The notes under the pieces were generated by a model. That model did not search any database. It saw only the letters and a program-made list of their open reading frames with translations, and was not told the DNA's origin. A DNA stretch of 64,000 nucleotides. It comes from Octopus vulgaris (Eukaryota). Positions within the stretch are counted from its first letter, which is position 1. Every line of letters starts with the position of its first letter. The stretch lies in the NCBI GenBank assembly GCA_951406725.2, contig OX597835.1, positions 37,014,001-37,078,000 on the forward strand, written 5' to 3'. Positions 2,799 to 63,650 of the stretch are shown piece by piece. The position numbers were made by a program, and so were the translations under genes.

Positions 2799-2833
<35 letters not shown>

Positions 2834-3114
2834 GCGAGAATGAAGCAACAAGAATGGATAGGTTTTTAGTACAATCGTTTCATACAAGGACAGGTTTTAT
2901 TAAAAGTTGCAAAAATTACAGCATATAAACGTGTCCCGTACTCATCAGCTAAAATACATGTGAGTTCTTTAGACATCAGAGAACTCACATGTATTTTAGC
3001 TGATGAGTACGGGACACGTTTATATGCTGTAATTTTTGCAACTTTTAATAAAACCTGTCCTTGTATGAAACGATTGTACTAAAAACCTATCCATTCTTGT
3101 TGCTTCATTCTCGC
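2834..3114. repeat. Perfect fold-back palindrome, 135-bp arms with 11-nt spacer, inserted in (TA)n
   Basis: 2834-2968 is the reverse complement of 2980-3114. The non-duplicated part continues to ~3233. Confidence 0.9.
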
Positions 3115-3231
3115 TTATAATCACCCCACATTACTGTATTGTTAAATCAGTATAGTTTTTTTTGGTGCATCTAAGTTAGGTACCATATTCAAGTAAATTC
3201 ATTTAAATTAACTTGAATCTTTATTGCTTTT

Positions 3232-3283
<52 letters not shown>

Positions 3284-3969
3284 TATATAAGTACTTGGTT
3301 TACAAAGAATAAGTCCTGGAGTCGATTGCTCGACTAAAGACGGTGCTCCGTCATGGCCGCAGCCAAATGACTGAAACAAGTAAAAGAGCGAGCGTAAAGA
3401 GTATATATATATATATATATATATAGGTTAGATAAAATTTGTTTGTGACATATTTCAACTGCAGTTACCATGGAGACAGTGTGCGGCGCAGCAGAACTGA
3501 ACTCGAAACCTTGAGCTTCTCAACTACACTGGCTTTTACCATTTTATTTTCAACTGGTGCAATTTATTTCATTTTGTCCGACCAACGAAAAACTGTCCTG
3601 GTTCCTCTCCACACACACAAACACAACATCGCTGCCCTGTCCTACAAAAGAATGCTTGGAAAGTTTTAAAACGTTTAATCTGAGACCTTCGCCGGATATT
3701 GTAGACGTATTAAGTTTCTGCTGTCGTCCTCCTATTAACACCCGTATGTATTGCTAGTGACGTATATACCCGGGCTATTTGTACTTTCATCACGTACTTG
3801 TGTGTCAGTATTTACTTGTGGGAAGTGTTGAATACCCTAAACTGGTTACAGCCGACTAAACGCATTCCGGGTGAACATCAACGCGTGTAAGAATATATGT
3901 CCGCTGTTTATATACATGTTATACACCCCACTTCTAAAGCAGATGGATATTGATATAGGTGAGAAAACA

Positions 3970-4035
<66 letters not shown>

Positions 4036-4673
4036 GTCATAATATACGGGTTCAAGTAATCCCAGTAATACAAAAATAAACTCCTTACCAACCACATGGT
4101 TCCAGGTTCAGTCCCACTGCGTGGCATTTTGGGCATGTGTCTTCTACTATAGCCCCGGGTCGACCAATGCCTTGTGAGTGGATTTGGTAGACAGAAACTG
4201 AAAGAAGCCTGTCGTATATATGTATGTGTGTCTGTGTTTGTCCCGCTAGCATTGCTTGACAACCGATGGTGGTGTGTTTACGTCTCCTTCACTTAGCGGT
4301 TCGGCAAAAGAAACCGTCAGAATAAGTACTGGGCTTACAAAGAATAAGTCCTGGGGTCGATTTGCTCGACTAAAGGCGGTGCTCCAGCATGGCCGCAGTC
4401 AAATGACTGAAACAAGTAAAAGAGTAAAGAGTAATGTATCATTCTACAAAACAAAATATATAGTCTGTGCTATGTAGTGGGACTGAACCCAGAACCGTGT
4501 GGTTGGGAACCAAGCTTCTTACCACACATTACACAAATATTCATATACACATGTCGAACTTCTATACAGTTTCTTCACCCTCAAAGTATTGGTCGGCCCT
4601 GAGCTGTAGTAGAAGGCGCTTGCCCAAGTATTTGGCAAAATATAGTTTGATGAAATTTTATGCAGCACGGATT

Positions 4674-4724
4674 TTTGTCAGTGATCAGGTCGCGGTCTTA
4701 AAGCGACGAAAATATTTTGACAAA
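4674..4724 (+). ncRNA. Type-I hammerhead-ribozyme-like motif with G3-C8 core variant
   Basis: TTTGTCA-GTGATCA-G-GTCGC(N9)GCGAC-GAA-AATATT-T-TGACAAA: 7-bp stem I, 5-bp stem II and palindromic stem III. Confidence 0.5.
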
Positions 4725-5020
4725 TTAAACTTAAATGTTAAAGTGTGTTTCTTAAATGGCTTACAAACACCTTCCACGCTGCAATTGAAATTTTATTTAT
4801 TTATTTTTTTTAATGTTACAGAGGTTTAAAGTTTGACTTTTTCTCCAGTCAGGAAACAAGATTTGGAAGCTATCATTTTGTGCGTGACATCACGTATTGT
4901 CAACATTTAAACAAATGAAATATTGGCAGGATTCTGCTTTACGCACGCTATATAACCCCCTCATAGCTTTTTTAGTTTGGGAATTTTCAGAAAATTTTTG
5001 TGCATTGGTATTCTGCATAG

Positions 5021-5426
5021 GGCGCAGGAGTGGCTGTGTGGTAAGTAGCTTGCTTACCAACCACACGGTTCCGGGTTCAGTCCCACTGCGTGGCATCTTG
5101 GGCAAGTGTCTTCTGCTATAGCCTCGGGCCGACCAATGCCTTATGAGTGGATTTGGTAGATGGAAACTGAAAGAAGCCTGTCGTATATATGTATATATAT
5201 ATGCATATGTGTGTGTGTGTGTATGTGTTTGTCCCCCCAACATCGCTTCACAACCGATGCTGGTGTGTTTACGTACCCGTCACTTAGCGGTTCGGCAAAA
5301 GAGACCGATAGAATAAGTACTGGGCTTACAAAGAGTAAGTCCCGGGGTCGATTTGCTCGACTAAAGGCGGTGCTCCAGCATGGCCGCAGTCAAATGACTG
5401 AAACAAGTAAAAGAGTAAAAAGAGTA
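5021..5426 (+). mobile_element. Full-length SINE family A (~400 bp)
   Basis: GGCGCAGGAGTGGCTGTGTGG head, internal (TA/TG)n, tail GACTGAAACAAGTAAAAGAGTAAAAAGAG. Confidence 0.85.
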
Positions 5427-6996: not shown

Positions 6997-8260
6997 GAGG
7001 GGCGTTCAATAAGTAATGCCCCTGACCCACTTCCCATAGCAGTAGAGCAACGAAACTTGGCACAGTTATTAGTCTTTTTCTACATAGGAACCACCCAGAG
7101 TTACGCATTTCTCCCATCGTTTGATGCGGCTCTGGAGACCGTTTTTGTAGAAGAACCCAGCTTGGTCCTCCAACCTCAACGTGACTTCAGAAATCAAGGC
7201 TGCATCATCTGGGAAACGCTTTCCTTTCAAAAACAACTTCATGATTGGGAAGAGGTGAAAATCAGAGGGTGCAAGGAGTTCATAGCCATACGCATGTGCT
7301 TCTGATCTGGCGACAAGCGAGTTGTGGACCGGAGCGTTGTCCTGCAGGAGGAGGATGCCTTTGCTGATCTTGCCCCGCCTCTTGATTTTGATAACTTCTC
7401 TTAATTTCCTCAAAAGTGAAGCATAATAGGCTCCTGCAATTGTGGTACCCTTTGCCAGGAAATCTGTCATCACTACTCCGTCCTGGTCCCAGAAGACTGT
7501 GAGCATGACCTTGCCAGCGGAGGGCTGCACCCTTGCCTTCTTTGGAGGGGGTGAGTCACGGTGCTTCCACTGCATTGACTGGGATTTGGTCTCTGGATCA
7601 TCGTGATGGACCCAGGTTTCATCCTGTGTAATCAGTCTTTTGAAAAATTTTGACTCATCTTCTTGGCACATCTCCAAATTCACCCTCGAGCACTGGACGC
7701 GTTCTTGCTTCTGGAAAGGCGTGAGCAACCTGGGAATCCATCTGGCAGACACCTTTTGCATATGCAAATGGTCATGAATGATAGTTTCCACGGACCCGGT
7801 ACTAATCTTGACCTCATGGGCTATTTGGCGAATAATTATGCGTCGATCTTCCAAAATGGCAGCCTCAGCTTGACGGACAGATGCCTCATCAATGGCAGAA
7901 GGGGGCGACCAGATCTGGGAGCTGTTTCCACAGAGTTCCGACCATGTTTGAATTCACGATGCCAGCGTTTTACAAGGTCATATGATGGGGCATCATCACC
8001 ATAAGTTACTTTCATTTCATCAAAAGTCTCCCGTGGTGTGCGTCCTTTCAAATACAAAAACCGGATCACCGCTCGACACTCAACAGGCTCCATTTCACAC
8101 TTGACTCGGTTCAAACACCTGTAAATCAGAAACCACAATTAATTCAGAGCTGTAATTTGCCACTTACTCTATAGAGATATAAATGATTGCACATGCAAAA
8201 TTTCAGCTAGATCAAACAACTGCAAGTGGGTCAGAGGCATTACTTATTGAACGTCCCTCG
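6996..8260 (-). mobile_element. Full-length mariner transposon (irritans-like), TA-flanked, ~37-bp TIRs
   Basis: TIR CGAGGGGCGTTCAATAAGTAATGCCCCTGACCCACTT at both ends with 2 mismatches, embedded in (TA)n; 1265 bp. Confidence 0.92.
7069..8093 (-). pseudogene. Mariner transposase with frameshift (~7900) and deletion of the YSPDL motif
   Basis: MEPVECRAVIRFL...RSGRP then WIPRLL, ITQDETW, LLQDNAP, APSDFHLF. The usual PHPPYSPDL segment is missing before APSD. Confidence 0.9.
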
Positions 8261-24009: not shown

Positions 24010-26052
24010 TGTGTGTCTGTATTTGTCCCCCCAACATTGCTTGACAACTGATGTTGGAGAGTTTACTTCTCCATAGCTTAGTGGTTCGGCAAAAGAGACC
24101 AATAGATTAAGTACCAGGCTTCCAAAGAATAAGTCCTGGAGTCCATTTGCTCGACTAAAGGCGGTACTCCAGCATGGCTGCGGTCAAATGACTGAAACAA
24201 GTAAAAGAGAGTAAAGAATATATGTATGTATTTATTGTATTCTATCTTGTTTCAGTCATTAGACCGCAGCCATGCTGGAGCACCACCTTTATTCGAGCAA
24301 ATGGACCTCAGGACTTATTCTTTGGAAGCCTGGTACTTATTCTATCGGTCTCTTTTGCCGACCATGAGGAATGTTATGTCATATGTATCAACCCCAATAC
24401 TTACTTTTTGAAAGCCTGGCACTTATTGTATCAGTCTCTTTTGCTGTGCTGCTAAGTTATGAGGACATAAACACACCAACACCAGTTGCCGAGTGGTAAT
24501 GGGGAGATGAACATGCATAGATATATGCACATATAGCCCCGTGTGGGCAATAAAGAAATATATATAAACAGTGGGCTTCTTTCTGTTTCCGTCTACCAAA
24601 TCCACTCACAAGGCTTTGGTTGGCCCAAGGATATAGTTGAAAACATTTGCCCAAGATGCTATGAACCTGGAACCATGTGGTTTGGAAGCAAGCTTCTTAC
24701 CACACATCCACACCTGCACCTATATATGACTGGCTTCCGTGGTGGTGGCCATTGCCAGCCTTCCCTGGCACCTGTGCTGGTGGCATGTAAAAAGCACCAT
24801 CTGTACGTGGTCGATGCCAGCACCACCTTGACCGGCTTCCGTGCCGGTGGCACGTAAAAAGCACCCACTACACTCACGGAGTGGTTGGCATTAGGAAGGG
24901 CATCCAGCTGTAGAAACACTGTCAGATCAGACTGGAGCCTCGTGCAGCCTCTTGGCTTCCCAGATCCCGGTCAAACTGTCCAACCCATGCCAGCATGGAA
25001 AGCAGACGTTCAACGATGATGATGATATATTATCTTTTTTTTATTTTTATTTTACCTGTTTCAGTCATTAGACTGCAGCCCATGCTTTGGCACCGCTTTG
25101 AAGAAAATTTAGTTTTCCCAAATAACTGGGAAGTACACAGCCATGCCTGCGGCACCGATAAGCTGAAGTTGGTAACTTCAGTCACCTAAGTGTCCTAATT
25201 AGCTGTAGTTATTTACGGCTGTTGTGAAAATGGTGTAACCGGAGTAAGAGTGGAATAGGAAACGGCAAGAGTGCTGTTACTTCTTGTGGAAACCAAGAGC
25301 TGCTTGCATGGGTAAAGCCCTGACTTTCTGCTGCTAGTGTACAAAAGTGTTAGGTTACATGGTAAGTAAATATGAATACAGGCGTGCGCAGGCATCGCTG
25401 TGTGGTAAGAAGCCTGCTTCCCAACCACATTGTTCCAGGTTCAGTCCCACTGTATGGCACCTTCAGCAAGTGTGTTCTGCTATAGCCTTAGGCTGACCAA
25501 AGCCTTGTGAGTGGACTTGGTAGTTGTGGAAACTGAGAGAAGACCATCGTATATATATATATATATATTGTGTGTGTGTGTGTTTGTTCCCACCACCGTC
25601 ACCATCACTTGACAACCGATGTTGGTGTGATTATGTTCCTGTAACATTAGCGGTTCAGCAAAAGAGACCGATAGAATAAGTACTGAGGGTTGGCTTGTTC
25701 GACTAAAGGCGGTGCTCCAGCATGGCCGCAGTCAACTGAGTGAAACAAATAACAGAATGAAGGAATATTGAATGCTATAGACATGCAGAGACAGGAAACC
25801 AGTGAGGTGCAAACGCTTCGCTGGATAATGTTAGCGAGTATCAACAACAAGGAGCAAGAATTTTTTAGCGAAAAACTAGGAATGACAGAGTGGTTGTATA
25901 CTGTCAACTTAACGTGACAGTCCCGTAAAGGGAATTACACCACTGCTATTTAGCCCTAGGAAGCATCGTCGCTTCCTGTCGGCTTTGATACATTACCTGT
26001 GTCCTTATATTTGTGAAGGGGAGACAAGCACCCCCACCAGCTAGGCCTGCAT

Positions 26053-26092
26053 CTAGAGACTAGTTTCTGAGTCTTGCTCGTCATCAGTCTGG
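26053..26092 (-). ncRNA. Type-I hammerhead ribozyme (copy 1)
   Basis: CCAGA-CTGATGA-CGAG(CAAGA)CTCA-GAAAC-TA-GTC-TCTAG; predicted cleavage after C at 26058. Confidence 0.7.
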
Positions 26093-26402
26093 CGCAGCAA
26101 GACCTGCTAGCTGCAGATGTTTGCCAAGCCTTTGCAATTATATATATTTTCAGTGAAATCTAATCACTGATCACCAAAATTAGAAATATTAAATTTCTAA
26201 ATATCTCAGAGAGATATGAGTAGTGGTGGGGGGGATAGTGTACTTGTATACTGTTGACTTAATGTGACAGTCCCGTAAAGGGAATCACACCGCTGCTATT
26301 TAACCCTAGGAAGCATTGTTGCTTCCTGTCGGCTTTGATACATTACCTGTGTCCTTATATTTGCAAAGGGGAGACAAGCACCCCCACCAGCTAGGGCCTG
26401 CA

Positions 26403-26448
26403 CCTAGAGACATGCATGTTTCTGAGTCTCGCTCGTCATCAGTCTAGG
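26403..26448 (-). ncRNA. Type-I hammerhead ribozyme (copy 2, intact core)
   Basis: CCTAGA-CTGATGA-CGAG(CGAGA)CTCA-GAAAC-ATGCAT-GTC-TCTAGG: 6-bp stem I, palindromic stem III, GUC site at 26409. Confidence 0.85.
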
Positions 26449-26470
26449 GTAGCAAGGCCTGCTAGCTGAG

Positions 26471-27127
26471 TGTATCTTTATTATGATCATGGTGATCTTA
26501 TATAGAATGGGATAATACAGGACAAACAAAAGACAAAGATGTTACATGAGTTCGCATGATATAAATGTTAAAAATTTACTTAAATAATATGTATTTTATA
26601 TATCGTTTGAATTTTCCTTTAAATAGAACTTTGATTTAAACTGAAACTAAATCAAAGAAAGACACAAACGAAACATTATGGGTCACACCCGGCAGCCTGT
26701 AAGGCCCAGCAACGAACTTTTCCTTTCCTCAATGATTAAGCTGGGTTACTAACACCCACCATTTTCCTCACATCCTTCCATCGTTTCTTGAATACTCTCG
26801 GTGGCAGGGTCCTCCTCTCCAGCCCCATCTTGCTCTTCAGATGGTATCTGAAGTAGGTTAGCAAACCGGGGCCTGAGATGAAAGACCCTTTCACCGCACC
26901 TTCCATTCTCGTTCTCCAGATGCACTCTTTCAATATTGCAGCCGTACAGTAAAAACATGCCTTACCTTCCTCTGTGAGTCCAGCTGGCGGTATCATCTTT
27001 ATCATAGATTCAGCTGACAGCTGTACTCACCCCAAATGCGACAACACGTGTTCGACGTAACTTATCAAGCTAGTTAGCTCCTGACATTGTACAATAGCGT
27101 GCTGGACAGTTTCCTTGTCACGTCGGC
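26471..27127 (-). mobile_element. 5'-truncated L1/Tx1-like LINE 3' end with 16-bp TSD
   Basis: Peptide CRRDKETVQHAIVQC (end of a zf-RVT-like CCHC) then KECIWRTR..FRYHLK..ER..FKKRW. The 3' UTR ends AATAAAGATACA. AGGCCTGCTAGCTGAG is duplicated at 26455-26470 and 27128-27143. Confidence 0.8.
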
Positions 27128-27949
27128 AGGCCTGCTAGCTGAGATGTTTGCCAAGCCTTCGCAAATATATGTATATTTTCAGTGAAATCTATTCACTGAT
27201 CACCAAAATAAGAAATATTAAATTACTAAATATCTCAGAGAGATATGAGTGGTGGTGGAGTGATAGAGTGCTTGTATACTGTTAACTTAATGTGACAGGA
27301 AGTGTCGATGCTTCCTAGGGCTAAATAGCAGTGGTGTGATTCCCTTTACGGGACTGTCATGTTAAGTTGACAGTATACAACCGCTCTATCGCTCCACCAC
27401 CGCTCATATCTCTCCGAGATATTTAGAAATTTAATATTTCTAATATAGGAATGATATTTTGCACCAATATTTTTTATTCCTGTAATGTATTGTATTCCTC
27501 AGCATCCAAGTTGACATAGTATGTAGTGTAAACATGAGGTGCTGTGGTCTTCAACCATTTTTTGCCTGTGAACCTCTTTGATTCCTATTTTACTCTGCTG
27601 CAGGGGTTACCCTTTACTCTTTCTCTTTTACTTGTTTCAGTCATTTGACTGTGGCCATGCTGGAGAACCGCCTTTCAGTCGAGCAAATCGACCCCCAGGA
27701 CTTATTCTTTGTAAGCCTAGTACTTATTCTATCGGTCTCTTTCATCGAACCGCTAAGTTATGGGGACGTAAACACACCAGCATCGGTTGTCAAGTGATGT
27801 TGGGGGAACAAACACAGACACATGAACACGTACACATACACATATATATATACATATATACGGCGGGCTTTTTTCAGTTTTTGTCTACCAAATTCACTCA
27901 CAAGGCTTTAGTACTTAGGAATGAGAACCCAGGTTTGAAATTTCCCCAA

Positions 27950-35449: not shown

Positions 35450-35522
35450 TGCTGAAACCTGGGATCGAACCAGGGACCTTTAGATCTCCAGTCTAACGCT
35501 CTCCCGACTGAGCTATTTAGGC
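35450..35522 (-). tRNA. tRNA-Phe-derived gene with anticodon GGA; probable pseudogene
   Basis: GCCTAAATAGCTCAGTCGGGAGAGCGTTAGACT-GGA-GATCTAAAGGTCCCTGGTTCGATCCCAGGTTTCAGCA, 73 nt. It has 5 substitutions versus the metazoan tRNA-Phe(GAA) sequence, including two acceptor-stem mismatches. Confidence 0.85.
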
Positions 35523-38465: not shown

Positions 38466-38595
38466 CTCTATCTATCAATTGATTCTATCATTCACCTGCT
38501 AATTTTTTTATTTCTTTGTTGAGTTGTTTGTTTATTTCCAATACCTGTGTTACATAAAAATTAACAATGATATTTTTTTCTTTTTCTTCTTGCAG

Positions 38596-41500
38596 TATTG
38601 CTGCTGTGACCCGTTCTTCAACGAAAACTTCTCTCATCAAAGACAATTCCATTCCAGTCGCTGATTTTTACTCTGAACCGATATTTTCGCCGCCGGGTGT
38701 CAAGACCCGACTACGTCGTCAATCAATGTATGTGCAAAAGCAAGTCCCAAATGTCTCGTTTTCAGTCACAAAACAGGATGTGACATTTTCTGAAACGAGC
38801 TCGTTGACTTCTGCCACGGTGACCAGCGTCTCGAGTCGCACCGTAACAACTGTCGAGCAGACAAAGTCATCTTCGGAGATGTCTGCTTTGGTCGGCAATG
38901 ACCAGGCAGTTGATGGACTGGCAGGCGAGAAAGAGACAATCAGTGAAGAAATCAGCAACATCATCAATAACCTTCGCGACTCGAATCGCAAGCGCAAGTC
39001 TGATGTGCAGACAGTGGAGACTTCTGACGTAAAAGAAAAAGTGCTGAAACCCTCAAAGACACTGGAAGAAGAGAAATTGTCTCTGGTTAGGAGTTTGTCG
39101 TTGAAGGAGAGGTCCAAAGATGTTTCGACAGCGGAAAATGAAAACGTATCCGAATCAGTTACTGTGGATATTGTTTCCGAAGAAGCGGAAGACGTTGAAG
39201 TGGAAGACGCTGAAGTGGAAGACGCTGAAGTAGAAGACGTAGAAGAGGTCCCGCCTGAAGTACAAGATGATTCCAGTAAAGCTAAGAAAAGCGCACCACA
39301 GAAGAAGAAGCCGGGAAGAAAAAGCAAGTCTCCCGCTGCTAAGACAAAGACGACCAGGACACGGAAGACAAGTACTTCGAGGACCAAAAGTCAAGAAACT
39401 GATTCAGAAGAAGTAGCAACAGTTGAAGTGGTTGTAGATAGCAGCAAAACTACACCTTCAAAGAAGAAAAGGGGCGCGACACCAGTGAAAGCAAAAGCAA
39501 GCAGTAAAAAAGGGGCAAAGAAAAGTACCACTCCTAAAAGACAAGCAAGTGCACCGAACAAGGAATTGGTCGTGGAAGCCGTTACTCCAGTAAAGAAAGA
39601 AAGGAGATCACGGTCGTTGGGGCCGAAGAGTAAAAAGAAAGTAGAAGAGGTGGCGGCAGACAAACCAGACGAGGATGCCGCTTCAGTTGAAACGAAAGAA
39701 ACATCTAAAAAAGGCTCTCGTTCGCGTAAAGGTACTCCTCAAAAATCTTCTGTAAAAGGCCCACGTAAAAAATCCACTTCGAGGAAATCAACTCCAGTGA
39801 GAAAGGCAACCCCTACGAAAACGCGTACTCCGAGAAAGGGTACTCCATCTAGAGAAAGAAAGGCTACTCCCACAAGAAAGGCCACCCCCACAAGGAAGGC
39901 CACCCCCACAAGAAAGGCCACACCCACAAGAAAGGCCACACCCACAAGGAAGGCCACACCCACAAGAAAGGCAAAGAAAGCCACTCCGTCTAGGGAAGCA
40001 ACTCCTGCCAGAAAATCCAGTACTCCTGTCAGAGAGGCTACTCCTGCTAGAAAATCTGCCACCCCACTTCGAGAAAGTTCTCCTGCTACAAAATCTGCCT
40101 CTCCAGCTCGAGAAAGTACTCCTGCAAGAAAGGCCACTCCTTCTAGAGAAGCAACTCCTGCTAGAAAGGGTACTCCTGCTAGAAAGACTACTGCTACTAG
40201 AAAGGGTACTCCTGCTAGAAAGGGTACTCCTGCTAGAAAGGGTACTCCTACTAGAAAGGCCACACCTTCTCGAGAAACAAGCGTTTCGAGAAAATCGTCT
40301 CCAAAGAAGGTGACCCCTTCTAGGGAGGTTACACCTGCGAGAAAGAGTACTACTAGGAAAGCAACACCTTCTAGGAGAGGATCTCCATCCAAAGCAGTCA
40401 AAGAGAAGACATCACGACGGAAATCTAGTGGAAAGAAGTCACAGAAAACATCACGGTCTCGAAGCAAAACAAAGAGAGTCCACAAGCGTTCTTCTTCAAA
40501 GAAAGCCGACAAGAAGAAAACAGTGCTGGCCACGCAGGAAAAAGAAGAATCCTTGTCTACTGTTGATGGGGCTGAGGAAAAAACAGCACCGCCCCCACAA
40601 AAGACTGCCACCAGTAGCTCTTCTATGTCTACAATAATCACCGGTCTCTTTAAGCATTTCGTCCCAAGCCAGAAAAAGGCAAAAGTAGTTGAGTCCACCA
40701 CAAGCACGGATACCACCACCACCACAACAACAACAGTTGGTGGTTCCATGGCAGCTGAGTCTGAAGTTGATACAGGGGAAGAACTGAGAAGGAAGATACC
40801 GGAGGCAAGAAAACACGCACTGATTTCTTCACCTCTGGATTCCAGCACACCTGATGTTCCCCAGGTTCCTAAAGCATCTTTCGTTAGTAGACTGAGAGAG
40901 ACAGCTTCAAGCCTGTCCCCATTTGCCCTGAGCAGGTCGTTCGAGTATAAGCGTGCTGTTGTAGCATCAGCTAACAACAAGACTGTAGAGATTTCGGAGA
41001 CGATCACACATCCAGGAACGACTGCTGGCAAAGGATTTGATGAGGCTGACCAACCAATGTCAGCAGTTGAAATGACCGCCAATGAAGATACGGAGAGCTC
41101 CACTCCTGCAACAGTTGAAGAGGATGAAAGCGAGCAAAAGCAAGATGAAAAAGTTGTCGACACACGAGAAGTGCATTACGAGTCCCAGGAATCAGAAATG
41201 GATGACGGGTCGATCATTGATAAGCTGGTTCATTATGAGTCCCAGCAGTCTGAGATAGAGGAGGTAGAAGTTGATAATCAGAAAAGTGTTCACTATGAGT
41301 CCCAGCATGACACTGAGGAAGAGTCCCAGGTTGAGACAGAAGATGACTCCCAGGCTGAGGTGGAGAATGAGGTGGAAGAAGAGTCACATGTTGAAGAAGA
41401 AGAAGTGTCACTTGATGTGGTAGGGAAAAAGATCCATGTTGAAGAAGAAGTGTCACTTGATGTGGTAAAGAAAAAGACCCATGTTGAAGAAGAAGAGGAG

Positions 41501-42508
41501 GAAGAAGAAGAAGAAGAGGAGGAGGAAGAGTCACATGATGTGGTGGAGAAAAAGACCTATGTTGAGGAACAAGAGTCCCAAGCTGAGACAGAAGAAGAGT
41601 CCCAGGTCGAGACAGAAGAAGAGTCGCAGGTTGAAACAGAAGAGTCACATGATGTGGTGGAGAAAAAGACCTATATTGAGGAACAAGAGTCCCAGGGCGA
41701 GACAGAAGAGGAGTCCCAGGTCGAGACAGAAGAAGAGTCCCAGATTGAGACAGAGAATGACTCCCAAGTGGAGTCTCAGGTTGAGACAGAAGAAGAGTCT
41801 CAGGTTGAGTCTGGGCAGGAGTCCCAAATTGAAACAGAAAATGAATCCCTGCTTGAGATGGAAAACAAGATAGATGATGGTGCTGCTGAAATATCCAATA
41901 TCACTATGGATACAGAGGAGTTTGTTTCATCCAAAAGAAATGTAACCGTCCACTACGAGTCACAAGAGTCGGAATTGCTCACAGAGGAAGAAGACGATGG
42001 TTCCTGTGTAGTGAATGATGTCGAGGCCTCTGCTGCTATTGCTGATGGTGATAATGTGAAAAAAGTTGAAGAGTCAGATCTCACTGAAGAGGATGTAGAG
42101 AAAGGAAAAGAACATGGTGTTTGTGAATATGTCAAAGAACACCTTATCACAGTCAACAACAAAGGTGAAGAAGAAGAAGAGGAGGAGGAGGAGGAAGAAG
42201 AGGAAGATGTAGGGGGAAGGGTATTGACTAGAAGACAAGCAGCAGCGGCGGCAGCTGCAGCAATGACAGGAACGTCGTTGAGGACAAAAAGAACAACAAC
42301 GACGACGACAACGACAAGAAAATCAGTGCTGGGTAAGAGAGGAGCTGAGAAGCTGCTAGAAGCTACCGACTACGACTTGGAGCCGCCAAAGAAGATCTTC
42401 ACCGAGGTGATGGACGAGGATGAGGCGATGGCTGACAACGATGAGGAGGCGAAGGCCCTCTACGACTCATATTACTCTGGCTACGGATTACGCTGCACCA
42501 TCCTCTGA
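38596..42508 (+). CDS. Terminal exon (~1300 aa) of a disordered protein: basic TPxR/K repeat domain, Glu-rich domain, NLS-like motif and C-terminal CaaX (CTIL)
   Basis: Uninterrupted 3.9-kb ORF, higher GC and free of TEs. TTTTTTTCTTTTTCTTCTTGCAG acceptor at 38595, so the ORF-track Met at 38567 is probably intronic. Ends GYGLRCTIL-TGA. Confidence 0.9.
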
Positions 42509-44464: not shown

Positions 44465-45692
44465 GAGGTTGAGCCAAAATGTTAATCTGTCTTTTTTTGA
44501 GGGAAAATTTTTGACGTAAATTTTAAGCGTTAAGCAATATATTTAATCAGTGATATAATTTCTTCTGCTCGTTTGTGGGCGAGTCCATTGTTTGCTGCTC
44601 AAAGAGTTTCCTGTCTTTACTGGTCAAGAACTCTACTTGGGTGAAGTTTTTTAGATCCATGTCAGAGATGGAAGTCTGTCCATTCAGTAAATTTCAAAAA
44701 AACCGAAAAATGTGGAAATCTGAAGGTGCTAGGTTGGGCAAATATTGGCAAGTGTGAGAAAACTTCCAAGCCAAACCAGCCCTCAACGTCTGCAAAGAAG
44801 TGAGCCATCTGGCATTGTTGTGATGGAAGACAAATACCTTTATGATCAATAAATTCCGGATGCTTCTGGTGGATTGTTATGTTTAATTTGTGGCGCTGGT
44901 CACAGTACACATCTGAATTGATGGTCTGGTTTGTGGGAAGAAGATTGTAAAAGAGAACACCCATCCATTCCCACCAAATTGACAGCATAACGTTCTTTTC
45001 AGTCAAGTACTGCTTCGGAGGTTGTTCACCACGCTTTTACTTCACGTTGTTCTACACGATCCATTTTTCGTCCCTGAATGTCATTCTCTTCAAAAACGGG
45101 ATCGTTTATTTCATGCATCTGCTACAAATCACAGATGGCCATTTGTTGGGCTCCATCCTCCTCATCCAATGGGTGTGGAACTCAAACATCAAGCCCGCAG
45201 ACATAACCAAGTCAATGTAGATGGCTTTCAACACTTGATTTGAATATTTAGAGAATATCTGTGATGAACCTCGTCATAGAACAGGACTTGGTCTCGGGTA
45301 ACTTCTTTGTTGCTGTTAATCTTAGTTGGCCAGCCAGAATGATTTGCATTTTCAATGGAAAAATTTCCCCATCAAAATCTTGCAAACCATTTCCATCACA
45401 CGACATTCCATAACAGCATCCTCTCCTCTCTGTACACAGCACGTCTTCCTGAAGGTTCCCATTGATTTTGCGCATGACATATCGATCGTGTTTGCATGCT
45501 TGAGATCAACCTGGAAATGGAGAACCAAAGCAAAATACAGTCTGTCCTGTCGCGAGTTCGTGTTGAACTATGTTAGTGTGTCGGGTATCTCTTGAGTGTG
45601 CATGCCCATAAGGAAAGGAAAGCAAACAGCGTTGGGTATATTAAACGAGTACACATGCGCAAAGGGAAAACAGCAAACGTTTTGGCCAACCG
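44465..45692 (-). mobile_element. Old full-length mariner relic
   Basis: KNVMLSIWW, LLPTNQTINSDVYC and HHNNAR peptides; degenerate TIRs GGTTGAGCCAAAATGTT / AACGTTTTGGCCAACCG. Confidence 0.75.
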
Positions 45693-54219: not shown

Positions 54220-55061
54220 CTAGCAGAATTGCCCGGCGTTGCTCGGGGCTGAATTGCTTGAAAGTACTGTTAATGATTGCACTGAATTATGATGATTATT
54301 CAGGCAAATATTGATATAAGTTTACGCTGGAAGATAAGGACTTAACGATCAAACATGTGCCACTGCATTGTTTTGGGGGAACCAAATTTCTGATGAGCAT
54401 TATAGGGGCACTAACTTTAAGTTTGAGAATGTGTGGCGGTAGTCCAGGGGGCTCAAAGGAATTGAGTACCTCTATTGGATAGTTGATGACGTCCTGTGGG
54501 TCAGGAGTTGTATTGATAGACTGATATACATAGACTTCCCCAGGAATGAGTTTTAGCATTTCATCATTAATATGGTGAACAGTTTTATTCCTCGGGACCA
54601 GTATAGCCTTTTGGCCAATCCATATTCTGATAATTAGCTTGTAGATCTGGGAACACTGCATCTCTGAGATCAGAAGGCGTCTTAACAATGGTACAAATGG
54701 AATCGATGGCAATATTACCATTTTCATCCCCTGGTATTTTGCCTTCGCCAAGTGCAAGGAGGGTGTGAGGAAATGCTGCTGATGTGATATTACGTCGCAT
54801 ATGAGCACGCATATTGGTGTGAAGTTTGAGGGTTACTTCCCTTTATTTAAAAAAATATGCATTAAAATGGGAGAAAATGATGGTAAATTATTTGTAAAAT
54901 CGTAGACTAATCGTAGACGCACGCTAATACCCAGAAGGGCTCGATATGAATCACGACTATAAGATACTCGGTTTTGGTTAAACTGCATCGCAAAATGTGG
55001 GAGTAGTTAGGAATCTAAATCGGAGTAGACAGACACACAACCTTTCTTTTATATATAAAGA
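54220..55061 (-). mobile_element. Non-autonomous Helitron (842 bp) carrying a Pif1-like helicase fragment
   Basis: A|TCTTTATATATAAAAG 5' end; CCCGAGCAACGCCGGG hairpin and CTAG|T 3' end. Peptide KAILVPRN..INDEML..LNSFEPPGLPPHILKLKVSAPIMLIRNL at ~54330-54790. Confidence 0.9.
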
Positions 55062-55064
55062 TTT

Positions 55065-57157
55065 TCGTCCTAAAAAACTTTGTATGGATTGAATGGTTAC
55101 CTCTATGGAAATATATACACACACATTATACATACATGTGTGTATAGATGAATATATAAATACATTTAAATATCTATATACACTTTTGGGCGATCTTTCT
55201 GCTACCTGGATATACTTTAGATCTTATATTCTTCCAATTCGTCCTAAATAACTTTGTATGGAGTGAATGGTTACCTTTATGGAAATATATACACACACAT
55301 TATACATACATGTGTGTATAGATGAATATATAAATACATTTAAATATCTATATACACTTTTGGGCGATCTTTCTGCTACTTGGATATACTTTAGATCTTA
55401 TATTCGTCCAATTCGTCCTAAATAACTTTGTATGGAGTGAATGGTTACCTCTATGGAAATATATACACACACATTATACATACATGTGTGTATAGATGAA
55501 TATATAAATACATTTAAATATCTATATACACTTTTGTGGGATCTTTCTGCTACTTGGATATACTTTAGATCTTATATTCTTCCAATTCGTCCTAAATAAC
55601 TTTGTATGGAGTGAATGGTTACCTTTATGGAAATATATACACACACATTATACATACATGTGTGTATAGATGAATATATAAATACATTTAAATATCTATA
55701 TACACTTTTGGGCAATCTTTCTGCTACCTGGATATACTTTAGATCTTATATTCGTCCAATTCGTCCTAAATAACTTTGTATGGAGTGAATGGTTACCTCT
55801 ATGGAAATAGATACACACACATTATACATACATGTGTGTATAGATGAATATATAAATACATTTAAATATCTATATACACTTTTGGGCGATCTTTCTGCTA
55901 CCTGGATATACTTTAGATCTTATATTTGTCCAATTCGTCCTAAATAACTTTGTATGGAGTGAATGGTTACCTTTATGGAAATATATACACACACATTATA
56001 CATACATGTGTGTATAGATGAATATATAAATACATTTAAATATCTATATACACTTTTGGGCGATCTTTCTGCTACTTGGATATACTTTAGATCTTATATT
56101 CGTCCAATTCGTCCTAAATAACTTTGTATGGAGTGAATGGTTACCTTTATGGAAATATATACACACACATTATACATACATGTGTGTATAGATGAATATA
56201 TAAATACATTTAAATATCTATATACACTTTTGGGCGATCTTTCTGCTACTTGGATATACTTTAGATCTTATATTCGTCCAATTCGTCCTAAATAACTTTG
56301 TATGGAGTGAATGGTTACCTCTATGGAAATATATACACACACATTATACATACATGTGTGTATAGATGAATATATAAATACATTTAAATATCTATATACA
56401 CTTTTGTGGGATCTTTCTGCTACTTGGATATACTTTAGATCTTATATTCTTCCAATTCGTCCTAAATAACTTTGTATGGAGTGAATGGTTACCTTTATGG
56501 AAATATATACACACACATTATACATACATGTGTGTATAGATGAATATATAAATACATTTAAATATCTATATACACTTTTGGGCGATCTTTCTGCTACCTG
56601 GATATACTTTAGATCTTATATTCGTCCAATTCGTCCTAAATAACTTTGTATGGAGTGAATGGTTACCTCTATGGAAATATATACACACACATTATACATA
56701 CATGTGTGTATAGATGAATATATAAATACATTTAAATATCTATATACACTTTTGGGCGATCTTTCTGCTACCTGGATATACTTTAGATCTTATATTTGTC
56801 CAATTCGTCCTAAATAACTTTGTATGGAGTGAATGGTTACCTTTATGGAAATATATACACACACATTATACATACATGTGTGTATAGATGAATATATAAA
56901 TACATTTAAATATCTATATACACTTTTGGGCGATCTTTCTGCTACTTGGATATACTTTAGATCTTATATTCGTCCTAAATAACTTTGTATGGAGTGAATG
57001 GTTACCTCTATGGAAATATATACACACACATTATACATACATGTGAGTATAGATGAATATATAAATACATTTAAATATCTATAAACACTTTTGGGCGATC
57101 TTTCTGCTACTTGGATATACTTTAGATCTTATATTCGTCGTAAATAACTTTGTATGA
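55065..57157. repeat. Satellite array: 10 x 174-bp plus 2 x 165-bp monomers
   Basis: Unit starts at 55065, 55239, 55413, 55587, 55761, 55935, 56109, 56283, 56457, 56631, 56805, 56970 and (partial) 57135. Confidence 0.95.
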
Positions 57158-62833: not shown

Positions 62834-62953
62834 TGTGAACTCTAGAGTTTGAAAATAAGGATTTCTAAAATTCTTTTACTGTGAACTTATCTCTCCGTAA
62901 ACTTTTCTTGTAGTGAACATTCCTTATGGTGAATTAATGATGCTGAATATTTC

Positions 62954-63396
62954 TCTTATATTATTATTATTATTATAATAATAATGGAGTGGTTGTATAC
63001 TGTCAACATAACGTGACAGTCCCGTAAGGGAATTACACCACCACAATTTAGCCCCTAGGACCATCGACGCTTCCTGTCGGCTTTGACACATTTCCCGTGT
63101 CCGTATATTTGCAAAGGGGAGGCAAGCACCCCCACCAGCTAGGACTAGCAACCTGAAGACATGCATGTTTCTGGGTCTTACCTGTCATCAGTCCAGGGTA
63201 GTGAGTCCTGCTAGTTGAGATAGCTGCCCAGCCTTCACAAATATATATATTTACAGTGAAATTTATTCACTGGTCAACATTCAGAATGGTCCTAGGGGCT
63301 AAATTGCGGTGGTGTAATTCCCTTACGGGACTGTCACGTTATGTTGACAGTATACAACCACTCCATTATTATTATTATAATAATAATAATATAAGA
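62954..63396 (-). mobile_element. Second locus of the ~350-bp hammerhead repeat family, with ~110-bp inverted termini
   Basis: Homologous to 25886-26200; 62954-63064 is the reverse complement of 63286-63396. Confidence 0.8.
63152..63197 (-). ncRNA. Type-I hammerhead ribozyme (copy 3)
   Basis: CCTGGA-CTGATGA-CAGGTAAGACCCA-GAAAC-ATGCAT-GTC-TTCAGG. Confidence 0.8.
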
Positions 63397-63650
63397 AAGC
63401 ATTCAAGGACCCTTAAATGACGTTTGTAAAGGGTCCATGTCTCACATAAGTAAAGGAGCAATGTCAGTACACATGCATGGTACACAGCAATTTTTGTTTG
63501 GTTTGTGATGCCATGCTGGGACCAGACACGAGACTGGAAGGAATCAGTTGCTCTCTGCAACCTGAAAGATATTTCATTATCCAGGGAGCAAGAATGGCTG
63601 AGCGTGCTGCCCAGGTAGAAAGACTTGTCTACCACTTTCAGAGGAACAAA
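63397..63650 (-). mobile_element. RTE-clade LINE ORF2 fragment
   Basis: YLGSTLS..DNEISFRL..VW..TKIAVYHACVLTLLLYLCETWTLYKRHL. Confidence 0.8.

What the first reader, a model, noticed from the sequence alone, without database searches (positions are those of the whole stretch)
25886..27443. Tandem ~350-nt hammerhead repeat that could release a 351-nt circular RNA (candidate cephalopod retrozyme)
Seen: head-to-tail ~350-bp units on the minus strand, each with CUGAUGA/GAAAC/GUC. The cleavage sites at 26409 and 26058 are 351 nt apart, stem III is palindromic, stem I is extended with a bulge, and the unit has no coding capacity. Known: non-LTR retrozymes are tandem monomers with type-I hammerheads that yield small circRNAs (described in other metazoans, including a mussel), and Penelope pLTRs carry similar ribozymes. 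Inferred: this is a non-autonomous, PLE-mobilised retrozyme family, here antisense to the CaaX gene and upstream of its identified exons, possibly intronic. I cannot tell whether it has already been catalogued.
Basis: partly seen in the sequence, partly recalled or inferred. Interest (0 to 1): 0.82.

Follow-up and report, generated by a model that had tools for sequence, protein, structure and literature searches.

The report
Ageing retrozyme copy with nested LINE
This is an aged copy of a common non-coding repeat with hammerhead-type RNA motifs, likely pasted in by Penelope-type jumping genes and likely later hit by a fragment of a second jumping gene; the kind is known, and this copy is predicted to be too damaged to release the proposed RNA circle.

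Summary
The two hammerhead motifs and their 351-nt spacing are real, but this is not a clean tandem array. The layout matches published Penelope-like insertions and no Penelope ORF is attached, so a Penelope-mobilised retrozyme-type repeat is the best reading. The family lies on thousands of contigs in four organisms' runs, with a fixed 3' end and compensatory stem changes. A 351-nt circle from this copy is doubtful: neighbouring units differ by 9%, hammerhead B has rare stem I changes and is predicted to misfold, and the stem III palindromes of A and B cannot pair as a dimer. Cleavage and circles are untested. The scan has already noted retrozymes and LINEs at this ribozyme position on other DNA of this genome. 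My contig data show this LINE 3' end also joined to other DNA, so strict targeting is not shown. New member of a known kind.

The parts
27446..27454 (-). Left copy of a 9-bp direct repeat (TCATTCCTA) bounding the whole element; read as target-site duplication
   Evidence: Longest exact match between the two flanks, at both boundaries; chance about 6e-4 allowing 11 x 11 positions
27294..27445 (+). Inverted 5' copy, unit positions 79-231; 27388-27445 (58 nt) run past the point where the direct arm ends (Penelope-type tail)
   Evidence: 5-nt overlap (CTGTC) with the direct arm at 27294-27298
27128..27298 (-). 5'-truncated direct unit (positions 139-309) with TATA-like stretch at about 27165-27175, ending in the 5' strand of hammerhead stem I
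27128..27143 (-). Upstream copy of the 16-bp duplication around the LINE stub
   Evidence: 16 of 16 identical to 26455-26470
26471..27127 (-). 657-nt 5'-truncated L1/Tx1-type LINE: ORF2 C-terminal remnant 26736-27125 with one in-frame stop, then AT-rich 3' UTR with AATAAA near the end
   Evidence: 102 relatives at E<=0.001; 7 of 9 relatives scanned carry zf-RVT and one also RVT_1; alignment; joints skipping 673 nt in 2 of 4 runs
26455..26470 (-). Downstream copy of the 16-bp duplication; also the outer 5' strand of hammerhead A stem I
26389..26470 (-). Hammerhead A: intact core, C.A at the base of stem II, 3-bp stem III (10-nt palindrome), predicted cleavage after 26409
   Evidence: constrained fold -30.8 vs free -36.6 kcal/mol
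26058..26408 (-). The 351-nt unit between the two predicted cleavage sites, 43% GC
   Evidence: circular fold -109.9 kcal/mol, z -4.6, 0 of 100 shuffles as low
26139..26146 (-). TATATATA about 18 nt upstream of an ACATCT that precedes hammerhead B; candidate promoter (inferred)
   Evidence: same kind of arrangement described for a rotifer Penelope pLTR (PMC3846280, passages)
26040..26113 (-). Hammerhead B: intact core, 6-nt stem III palindrome, weakened stem I; predicted to misfold; predicted cleavage after 26058
   Evidence: constrained -13.9 vs free -27.3 kcal/mol; letters at 26093 and 26095 differ from 97% and 96% of summed depth in X1
25886..26057 (-). Terminal partial unit (positions 1-172) ending just after a stem-loop at 25900-25921
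   Evidence: loose ends at 25887 in 31, 42, 25 and 36 contigs of 4 of 4 runs, agreement 0.48-0.50
25877..25885 (-). Right copy of the 9-bp direct repeat
62944..63405 (-). Second family copy: one hammerhead, same 3' end (unit position 172), inverted 5' copy including about 40 nt of AT-rich sequence at both ends
   Evidence: arms differ at 1 of 75 compared positions; no flanking duplication of 6 nt or more found

Best explanation
This is an aged insertion of a high-copy, non-coding hammerhead repeat (retrozyme type), likely copied in by a Penelope-like element's enzyme and likely hit afterwards by a truncated LINE, and it is predicted not to release the 351-nt circle efficiently. Shown: the anatomy (9-bp flanking repeat, inverted copy with 58-nt tail, about 2.1 direct units, two cores, LINE stub with 16-bp duplication), the family's abundance and its fixed 3' end. 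Inferred life cycle of the family: a TATA-type promoter just upstream of the ribozyme starts the RNA; successive hammerheads cut out monomers, which host ligase would circularise as in mussel and axolotl; a Penelope protein nicks AT-rich DNA on both strands and starts reverse transcription at two fixed sites (unit positions about 172 and 231), giving a long direct arm and a short inverted arm joined by microhomology. Inferred for this copy: the template held two hammerhead subtypes (linear or dimeric RNA, template switch, or later gene conversion), not one 351-nt circle; the LINE cut hammerhead A off from its promoter; B has decayed.
For: Anatomy matches Pen2a_Av: direct pLTRs plus inverted pLTR, 9-bp TSD, tail at one end, TATATATA (PMC3846280, passages) and the general PLE layout (PMC8557442, passages). 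Two RT start sites explain the tail in vitro (PMC11167929, parts 1-2 of 4). Both window copies end at unit position 172, and 25-42 contigs per run leave the stretch at 25887 into unlike flanks. The unit runs from that end into the next ribozyme with no ORF in three pieces of this locus. 5378, 5426, 2818 and 3658 contigs were laid on the 1.6-kb stretch, LINE part included, in 4 of 4 runs. Compensatory pairs: stem II A-U to G-C and stem I A-U to G-C in phase in the 63-kb copy; the two stem II changes stand at 31% and 43% (X1) and 43% and 54% (X2) of summed depth, phase not shown. Size and GC fit metazoan retrozymes, and a stem II base mismatch is tolerated in axolotl HHR_Amex2 (PMC7229834, sections 14-15).
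Against: No cleavage, transcript end or circle shown. Rfam does not score the motif. The base of stem II is C.A instead of G-C in all three window copies, with U-A in only 10-13% of depth. Free folds of all three motifs are not the hammerhead fold. Only 1 of 9 Xenopus genomic dimers cleaved in vitro (bioRxiv 10.64898/2026.07.22.740005, part 3), and an anole PLE hammerhead needs protein and is dispensable for insertion. No autonomous partner was identified; no genome is held. The tail is 58 nt against the 30-40 nt published. The order LINE-after-insertion is inferred only. Both direct units share three letters that are rare in the family, which fits a common template or local duplication and is not fully explained by a two-subtype template.
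Confidence: 0.72

Rival explanations
1. The unit is simply the pLTR of an autonomous Penelope-like element, and this locus is a truncated tandem-plus-inverted stump of it with no monomer life cycle.
For: Same insertion marks as autonomous PLEs; Xenopus retrozymes are homologous to pLTRs; an ATG lies in the hammerhead core, near where the anole PLE ORF starts; earlier scan notes read similar loci in other genomes this way (unchecked).
Against: The frame from that ATG stops after 42 codons in B and 12 in A; it found no longer relative (weak test); the unit is continuous from 3' end to next ribozyme with no ORF; the ribozyme has a full stem III, not the minimal PLE form.
Confidence: 0.15
2. This very locus is active: read-through from the LINE stub or upstream DNA is cut at A and B, and a 351-nt circle forms.
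For: Both cores intact, 351 nt apart; monomer folds far better than shuffles (z -4.6); B's 5' strand pairs better with A's 3' strand (constrained -20.7 kcal/mol) than with its own (-13.9).
Against: B is predicted to misfold by 13 kcal/mol; A x B stem III duplex is +0.4 kcal/mol against -13.3 for A x A and -4.8 for B x B; units differ at 16 of 173 positions; the promoter in front of A is displaced by the LINE.
Confidence: 0.12
3. The tandem arose locally (unequal crossover or gene conversion on a 1.1-unit insertion) and the family is now inert satellite-like debris.
For: Middle and terminal units share rare letters at unit positions 64, 70, 90; middle and left units share three letters at 146, 154, 166 that the terminal and inverted pieces lack, as a crossover would give.
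Against: A and B stem III types both occur in other copies, so simple duplication of one unit does not give both; the 63-kb copy is young (1 of 75 differences between arms).
Confidence: 0.2
4. The LINE belongs to a family that specifically targets the transcription start of these repeats to borrow their promoter.
For: Insertion sits in the same orientation about 20 nt behind the TATA-like stretch, with a 16-bp duplication; Tx1-clade LINEs often have fixed targets, including other transposons and U2 genes (PMC4494074, passages); 8 of 8 listed earlier notes on this genome report such insertions (unchecked).
Against: One insertion only in my data. In one search, 7 contigs of X2 and 1 of X12 carry this LINE 3' end joined to sequence that does not fit the repeat (agreement 0.52 in X2), and none of the 32 pieces shown (of 1192) bridges LINE end and ribozyme. 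Tx1 clade and start site were not tested here.
Confidence: 0.35

Closest known systems
Metazoan non-LTR retrozymes (Cervera and de la Pena 2020, PMC7229834; passages and sections 14-15 read; supplement unreadable)
   Same: Type I hammerhead in a 350-nt non-coding unit under 45% GC, tandem arrangement, palindromic stem III, mismatch at the base of stem II as in axolotl HHR_Amex2, target duplication longer than 4 bp.
   Different: C.A rather than U.U at stem II base; inverted 5' copy with tail (the word 'inverted' does not occur in that main text); nested LINE; cleavage and circles not shown here.
EN+ Penelope-like element insertions (PMC3846280 and PMC8557442, passages; PMC11167929, parts 1-2 of 4)
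   Same: 5' truncation, partial tandem, inverted 5' copy, tail at one end, 9-bp TSD, TATA-like motif, fixed 3' end beside a stem-loop, AT-rich flanks.
   Different: No RT or GIY-YIG ORF at this locus; tail 58 nt, not 30-40; full-length rather than minimal hammerhead.
Retrozymes as non-autonomous PLE derivatives (Li, Clavereau, Pollet 2026, bioRxiv 10.64898/2026.07.22.740005; parts 1 and 3 of 5 and passages read)
   Same: Proposes PLE origin and mobilisation of animal retrozymes.
   Different: Its evidence is co-occurrence and pLTR homology, mostly in vertebrates; here the evidence is insertion anatomy; 'octopus' and 'mollusc' do not occur in its main text.
Target-specific Tx1-clade LINEs: Tx1 in Tx1D, Keno in U2, Tx1-Mar in Mariner-N4 (PMC4494074, passages)
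   Same: L1/Tx1-type ORF2 end, long target duplication, insertion into a multicopy element.
   Different: Target is a hammerhead repeat; specificity not shown by my data; clade not tested by RT phylogeny.

Membership tests
Type I hammerhead ribozyme | Core CUGANGA, GAAA, NUH with three stems, stem I open | tested here: met
   A and 63-kb copy pass my descriptor, 0 hits in 30 shuffles; B has the core but fails on stem I/III
Type I hammerhead ribozyme | G10.1-C11.1 pair at the base of stem II | tested here: not met
   C.A in all three window copies, U-A in 10-13% of depth; can also be read as G-C with one extra base on each side; a U.U variant is active
Type I hammerhead ribozyme | Match to an Rfam hammerhead model | tested here: not met
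Type I hammerhead ribozyme | Self-cleavage | not testable with these tools
   needs run-off transcription
Non-LTR retrozyme | Short (170-400 nt) non-coding unit, low GC, one hammerhead per unit | tested here: met
   351 nt, 43% GC; no ORF over 67 codons overlapping the unit
Non-LTR retrozyme | Two consecutive units with complete hammerheads | tested here: inconclusive
   Two cores 351 nt apart, but B is degenerate
Non-LTR retrozyme | High copy number, dispersed | tested here: met
   611 and 526 contigs on the 241-nt ribozyme-plus-LINE-end stretch in X1 and X2; unlike flanks at 25887; second copy in the window
Non-LTR retrozyme | Monomeric linear and circular RNA in vivo | not testable with these tools
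   only contigs were served; they cannot show ends, strand or circles
EN+ Penelope-like insertion | Partial tandem, inverted 5' copy, tail, short TSD | tested here: met
   tail longer than published
Autonomous Penelope-like element | RT plus GIY-YIG ORF attached to the repeat | tested here: not met
   None at this locus; none among 14 of 53 window ORFs scanned; genome-wide not testable
L1/Tx1-type LINE | ORF2 C-terminus with zf-RVT, 5' truncation, TSD | tested here: met
   the stub itself gave no Pfam hit
Target-specific Tx1 | Tx1 clade by RT tree; over 20% of flanks in one target type | tested here: inconclusive
   No RT domain in the stub; flank data partial and partly against

The most novel reading that the evidence does not exclude
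A three-tier parasite system in cephalopods: Penelope enzymes copy a hammerhead RNA from two fixed start sites, leaving a readable record of retrozyme mobilisation, and an L1/Tx1 LINE lineage aims at the transcription start of these retrozymes to capture their promoter, a target type my searches did not find in print.
Probability: 0.3. Interest if true: 0.7.

Novelty: new member of a known kind. Interest (0 to 1): 0.4.

Why it matters
Which enzyme moves animal retrozymes has been argued from co-occurrence and homology. An ORF-less hammerhead repeat with the full Penelope insertion signature points to Penelope proteins and names two start sites that an existing in vitro system could test. The nested LINE, if part of a targeting family, would add ribozyme repeats to the list of LINE targets. 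This particular copy is old and a poor substrate; younger copies such as the one at 63 kb are better.

Tried and rejected
No genome is held, so no copy census or partner search. Sequencing runs: no RNA holder listed; two runs guessed to be RNA gave 16 and 33 contigs on the ribozyme stretch, which may be DNA and show nothing on cleavage or circles. One X15 contig leaves the repeat near the predicted cleavage site; a single contig, not counted. No substitution row falls in the catalytic core among 40 of 52 rows shown, but none falls in the neighbouring stem I 5' strand either, so this is not evidence of core conservation. Summed depth drops 6- to 8-fold between 26184-26237 and 26130-26183 in 4 of 4 runs: a weak hint of a second end near unit position 230, as depth is not copy number. 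Tandem Repeats Finder does not list the locus. A 20-nt family motif found 0 viral contigs and 1 metagenome contig, L001, a chance match with no further similarity. Word-index protein searches found nothing for the LINE stub or for the frame through hammerhead B; the ESM Atlas gave only a weak zinc-binding RT lead. The sigma-70 scan does not apply to an animal. An snRNA-type promoter, proposed in earlier notes and reported for newt satellite 2 (secondary citation in PMC2220036, passages; the primary paper is not held), could not be tested: no U1/U2 gene in the window. Literature searches for a cephalopod retrozyme or a LINE targeting hammerhead repeats listed none; an Octopus vulgaris repeat annotation has 0 occurrences of hammerhead, retrozyme or ribozyme in its main text (PMC13282606, passages). 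The supplement of PMC7229834 could not be read and may list cephalopods; subscription papers and Repbase were not searched.
Full report
Observation. On the minus strand two hammerhead cores start at 26442 (A) and 26087 (B), with predicted cleavage after 26409 and 26058, 351 nt apart. A third core of the same family lies at 63191. A descriptor asking for the core, stem II, stem III and 5 of 6 stem I pairs hit A and the 63-kb copy in the window and nothing in 30 shuffles; B failed. Rfam gives no hammerhead match, and Tandem Repeats Finder does not list the locus. All three motifs have C.A where hammerheads usually have G10.1-C11.1.

Anatomy. Numbering the unit from 26408, the element reads: 9-bp repeat (27454-27446); inverted piece, positions 231 to 79 (27445-27294); direct positions 139-309 (27298-27128); 657-nt insert; hammerhead A; full unit; hammerhead B; positions 1-172; 9-bp repeat (25885-25877). 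The 9-bp repeat sits at both boundaries (chance about 6e-4). The inverted and direct arms overlap by 5 nt. The inverted arm runs 58 nt beyond the point where the direct arm stops. The 63-kb copy ends at the same position 172 and also has an inverted 5' copy, with arms differing at 1 of 75 positions.

The insert. It is bounded by 16 identical bases (26455-26470, 27128-27143). Its frame, read with X at one stop, has 102 relatives at E<=0.001. Seven of 9 relatives scanned carry zf-RVT, one also RVT_1, and the stub aligns with their C-termini. It is the 3' end of an L1/Tx1-type LINE; 'L1/Tx1' rests on this domain layout and on recall, not on a tree. Contigs that skip 673 nt at this place exist in 2 of 4 runs (one each, side 29), and the usual upstream neighbour of hammerhead A's 5' strand is the TATA-bearing stretch (11 contigs each in X1 and X2 at 26470, more at 26465-26469). 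Whether these are an empty allele or other copies cannot be told.

The family. In 4 of 4 runs (four organism codes; three guessed DNA, one unlabelled) 2818-5426 contigs lie on the 1.6-kb stretch, and 31, 42, 25 and 36 contigs leave it at 25887 into unlike, mostly AT-rich sequence. The 3' end is therefore fixed, just after a stem-loop. Stem II and stem I show A-U to G-C changes in phase in the 63-kb copy, and the two stem II changes are both common in the family (phase not shown). The host is not given; earlier notes call the genome octopus-like, which agrees with my recall of its repeats and is not tested.

Mechanism. The layout matches published Penelope-like insertions: direct plus inverted repeats, tail at one end, 9-bp TSD and a TATATATA motif in rotifer Pen2a (PMC3846280, passages; PMC8557442, passages). 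An anole Penelope protein nicks both strands of AT-rich DNA and starts reverse transcription at two internal sites whose spacing is the tail (PMC11167929, parts 1-2 of 4). I infer the same here, with starts near positions 172 and 231. No Penelope ORF is attached: the unit runs on from its 3' end to the next ribozyme in three pieces of this locus, the frame from the ATG in the core is short, and none of 14 of 53 long window ORFs scanned is an RT or GIY-YIG protein. Size, GC and ribozyme form fit metazoan retrozymes, which give circles in mussel and axolotl (PMC7229834, sections 14-15 and passages). PLE mobilisation of retrozymes is already proposed there and in bioRxiv 10.64898/2026.07.22.740005 (parts 1 and 3 of 5).

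Would this copy give a circle? Probably not. Neighbouring units differ at 16 of 173 positions in both comparisons. B differs from A and the 63-kb copy at three stem I positions, two of which differ from 96-97% of summed depth in X1. Its hammerhead fold is 13 kcal/mol above a competing hairpin, against about 6 for A and 5 for the 63-kb copy. B's short stem III would need a dimer partner (PMC4209133, passages), but A x B pairing is +0.4 kcal/mol. In favour: the monomer folds well as a circle (z -4.6), and B's 5' strand pairs better with A's 3' strand than with its own. Base rates are low: 1 of 9 Xenopus dimers cleaved.

Template. A-type and B-type stem III both occur in other copies, so the long arm is not one 351-nt circle copied round. 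Yet the two direct units share three letters that are rare in the family, and the middle and left units share three more that the terminal and inverted pieces lack. A two-subtype template, a template switch or later crossover could each explain part; I leave this open.

LINE targeting. The stub lies in the repeat's orientation about 20 nt behind the TATA-like stretch, which could be the start site (inferred). Tx1-clade LINEs often have fixed targets (PMC4494074, passages). I saw the insertion before the look-up; 8 of 8 listed earlier notes on this genome report LINEs at such a site, several proposing promoter capture (unchecked). My own data do not show strict targeting: 7 contigs of X2 and 1 of X12 join this LINE 3' end to other sequence, and none of 32 pieces shown of 1192 bridges LINE end and ribozyme. 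The other targets might be sister repeats or snRNA genes; I could not identify them.

Context and literature. The CaaX-ending ORF is 11 kb away on the plus strand; an intronic position is untested. Searches listed no cephalopod retrozyme and no LINE that targets hammerhead repeats. PMC13282606 (passages) lists 30 recently active Penelope and 13 L1-Tx1 families in Octopus vulgaris and does not mention ribozymes. The supplement of PMC7229834 was unreadable. The scan has noted retrozyme families with Penelope marks, including 351- and 355-nt units, elsewhere in this genome.

Verdict. Real ribozyme motifs in a known class of element; the Penelope insertion marks and the nested LINE are the informative parts; the circle is unshown and unlikely from this copy. 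Interest 0.4.

Noticed in passing
window 62944-63405: Young single-ribozyme copy of the same family; about 40 nt of AT-rich sequence beyond the element end is present on both arms in inverted orientation, with no flanking duplication of 6 nt or more. Better substrate for cleavage tests.
   Followed up: partly
window 26088-26098: Hammerhead B's stem I 5' strand resembles the reverse complement of A's 3' strand more than A's own 5' strand does; a templated (strand-switch) change is possible but untested.
   Followed up: partly
window 25500-25760 and 27620-27910: Two copies of an abundant short repeat flank the element in inverted orientation; the repeat occurs many times in the window, so probably coincidental.
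   Followed up: no
window 55064-57139 and 54299-54832: Twelve copies of a 174-bp unit at 97% matches next to a Pif1 helicase 2B fragment; possibly a Helitron-linked minisatellite.
   Followed up: no
window 38558-42508: 1316-codon open frame with basic SPKK/TPxRK-like repeats, acidic repeats and a CTIL* end; no Pfam hit.
   Followed up: partly
window 35450-35522: tRNA match on the minus strand, 60.6 bits, with two non-standard pairs in the acceptor stem; likely a pseudogene.
   Followed up: no
window 7072-7953 and 44665-45036: Transposase_1 (mariner-type) fragments.
   Followed up: no
window 26687: Many related LINE contigs leave the stub here into a T-rich stretch (15, 4 and 7 contigs in X2, X3, X6): sister subfamilies share ORF2 but have other 3' UTRs.
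   Followed up: no
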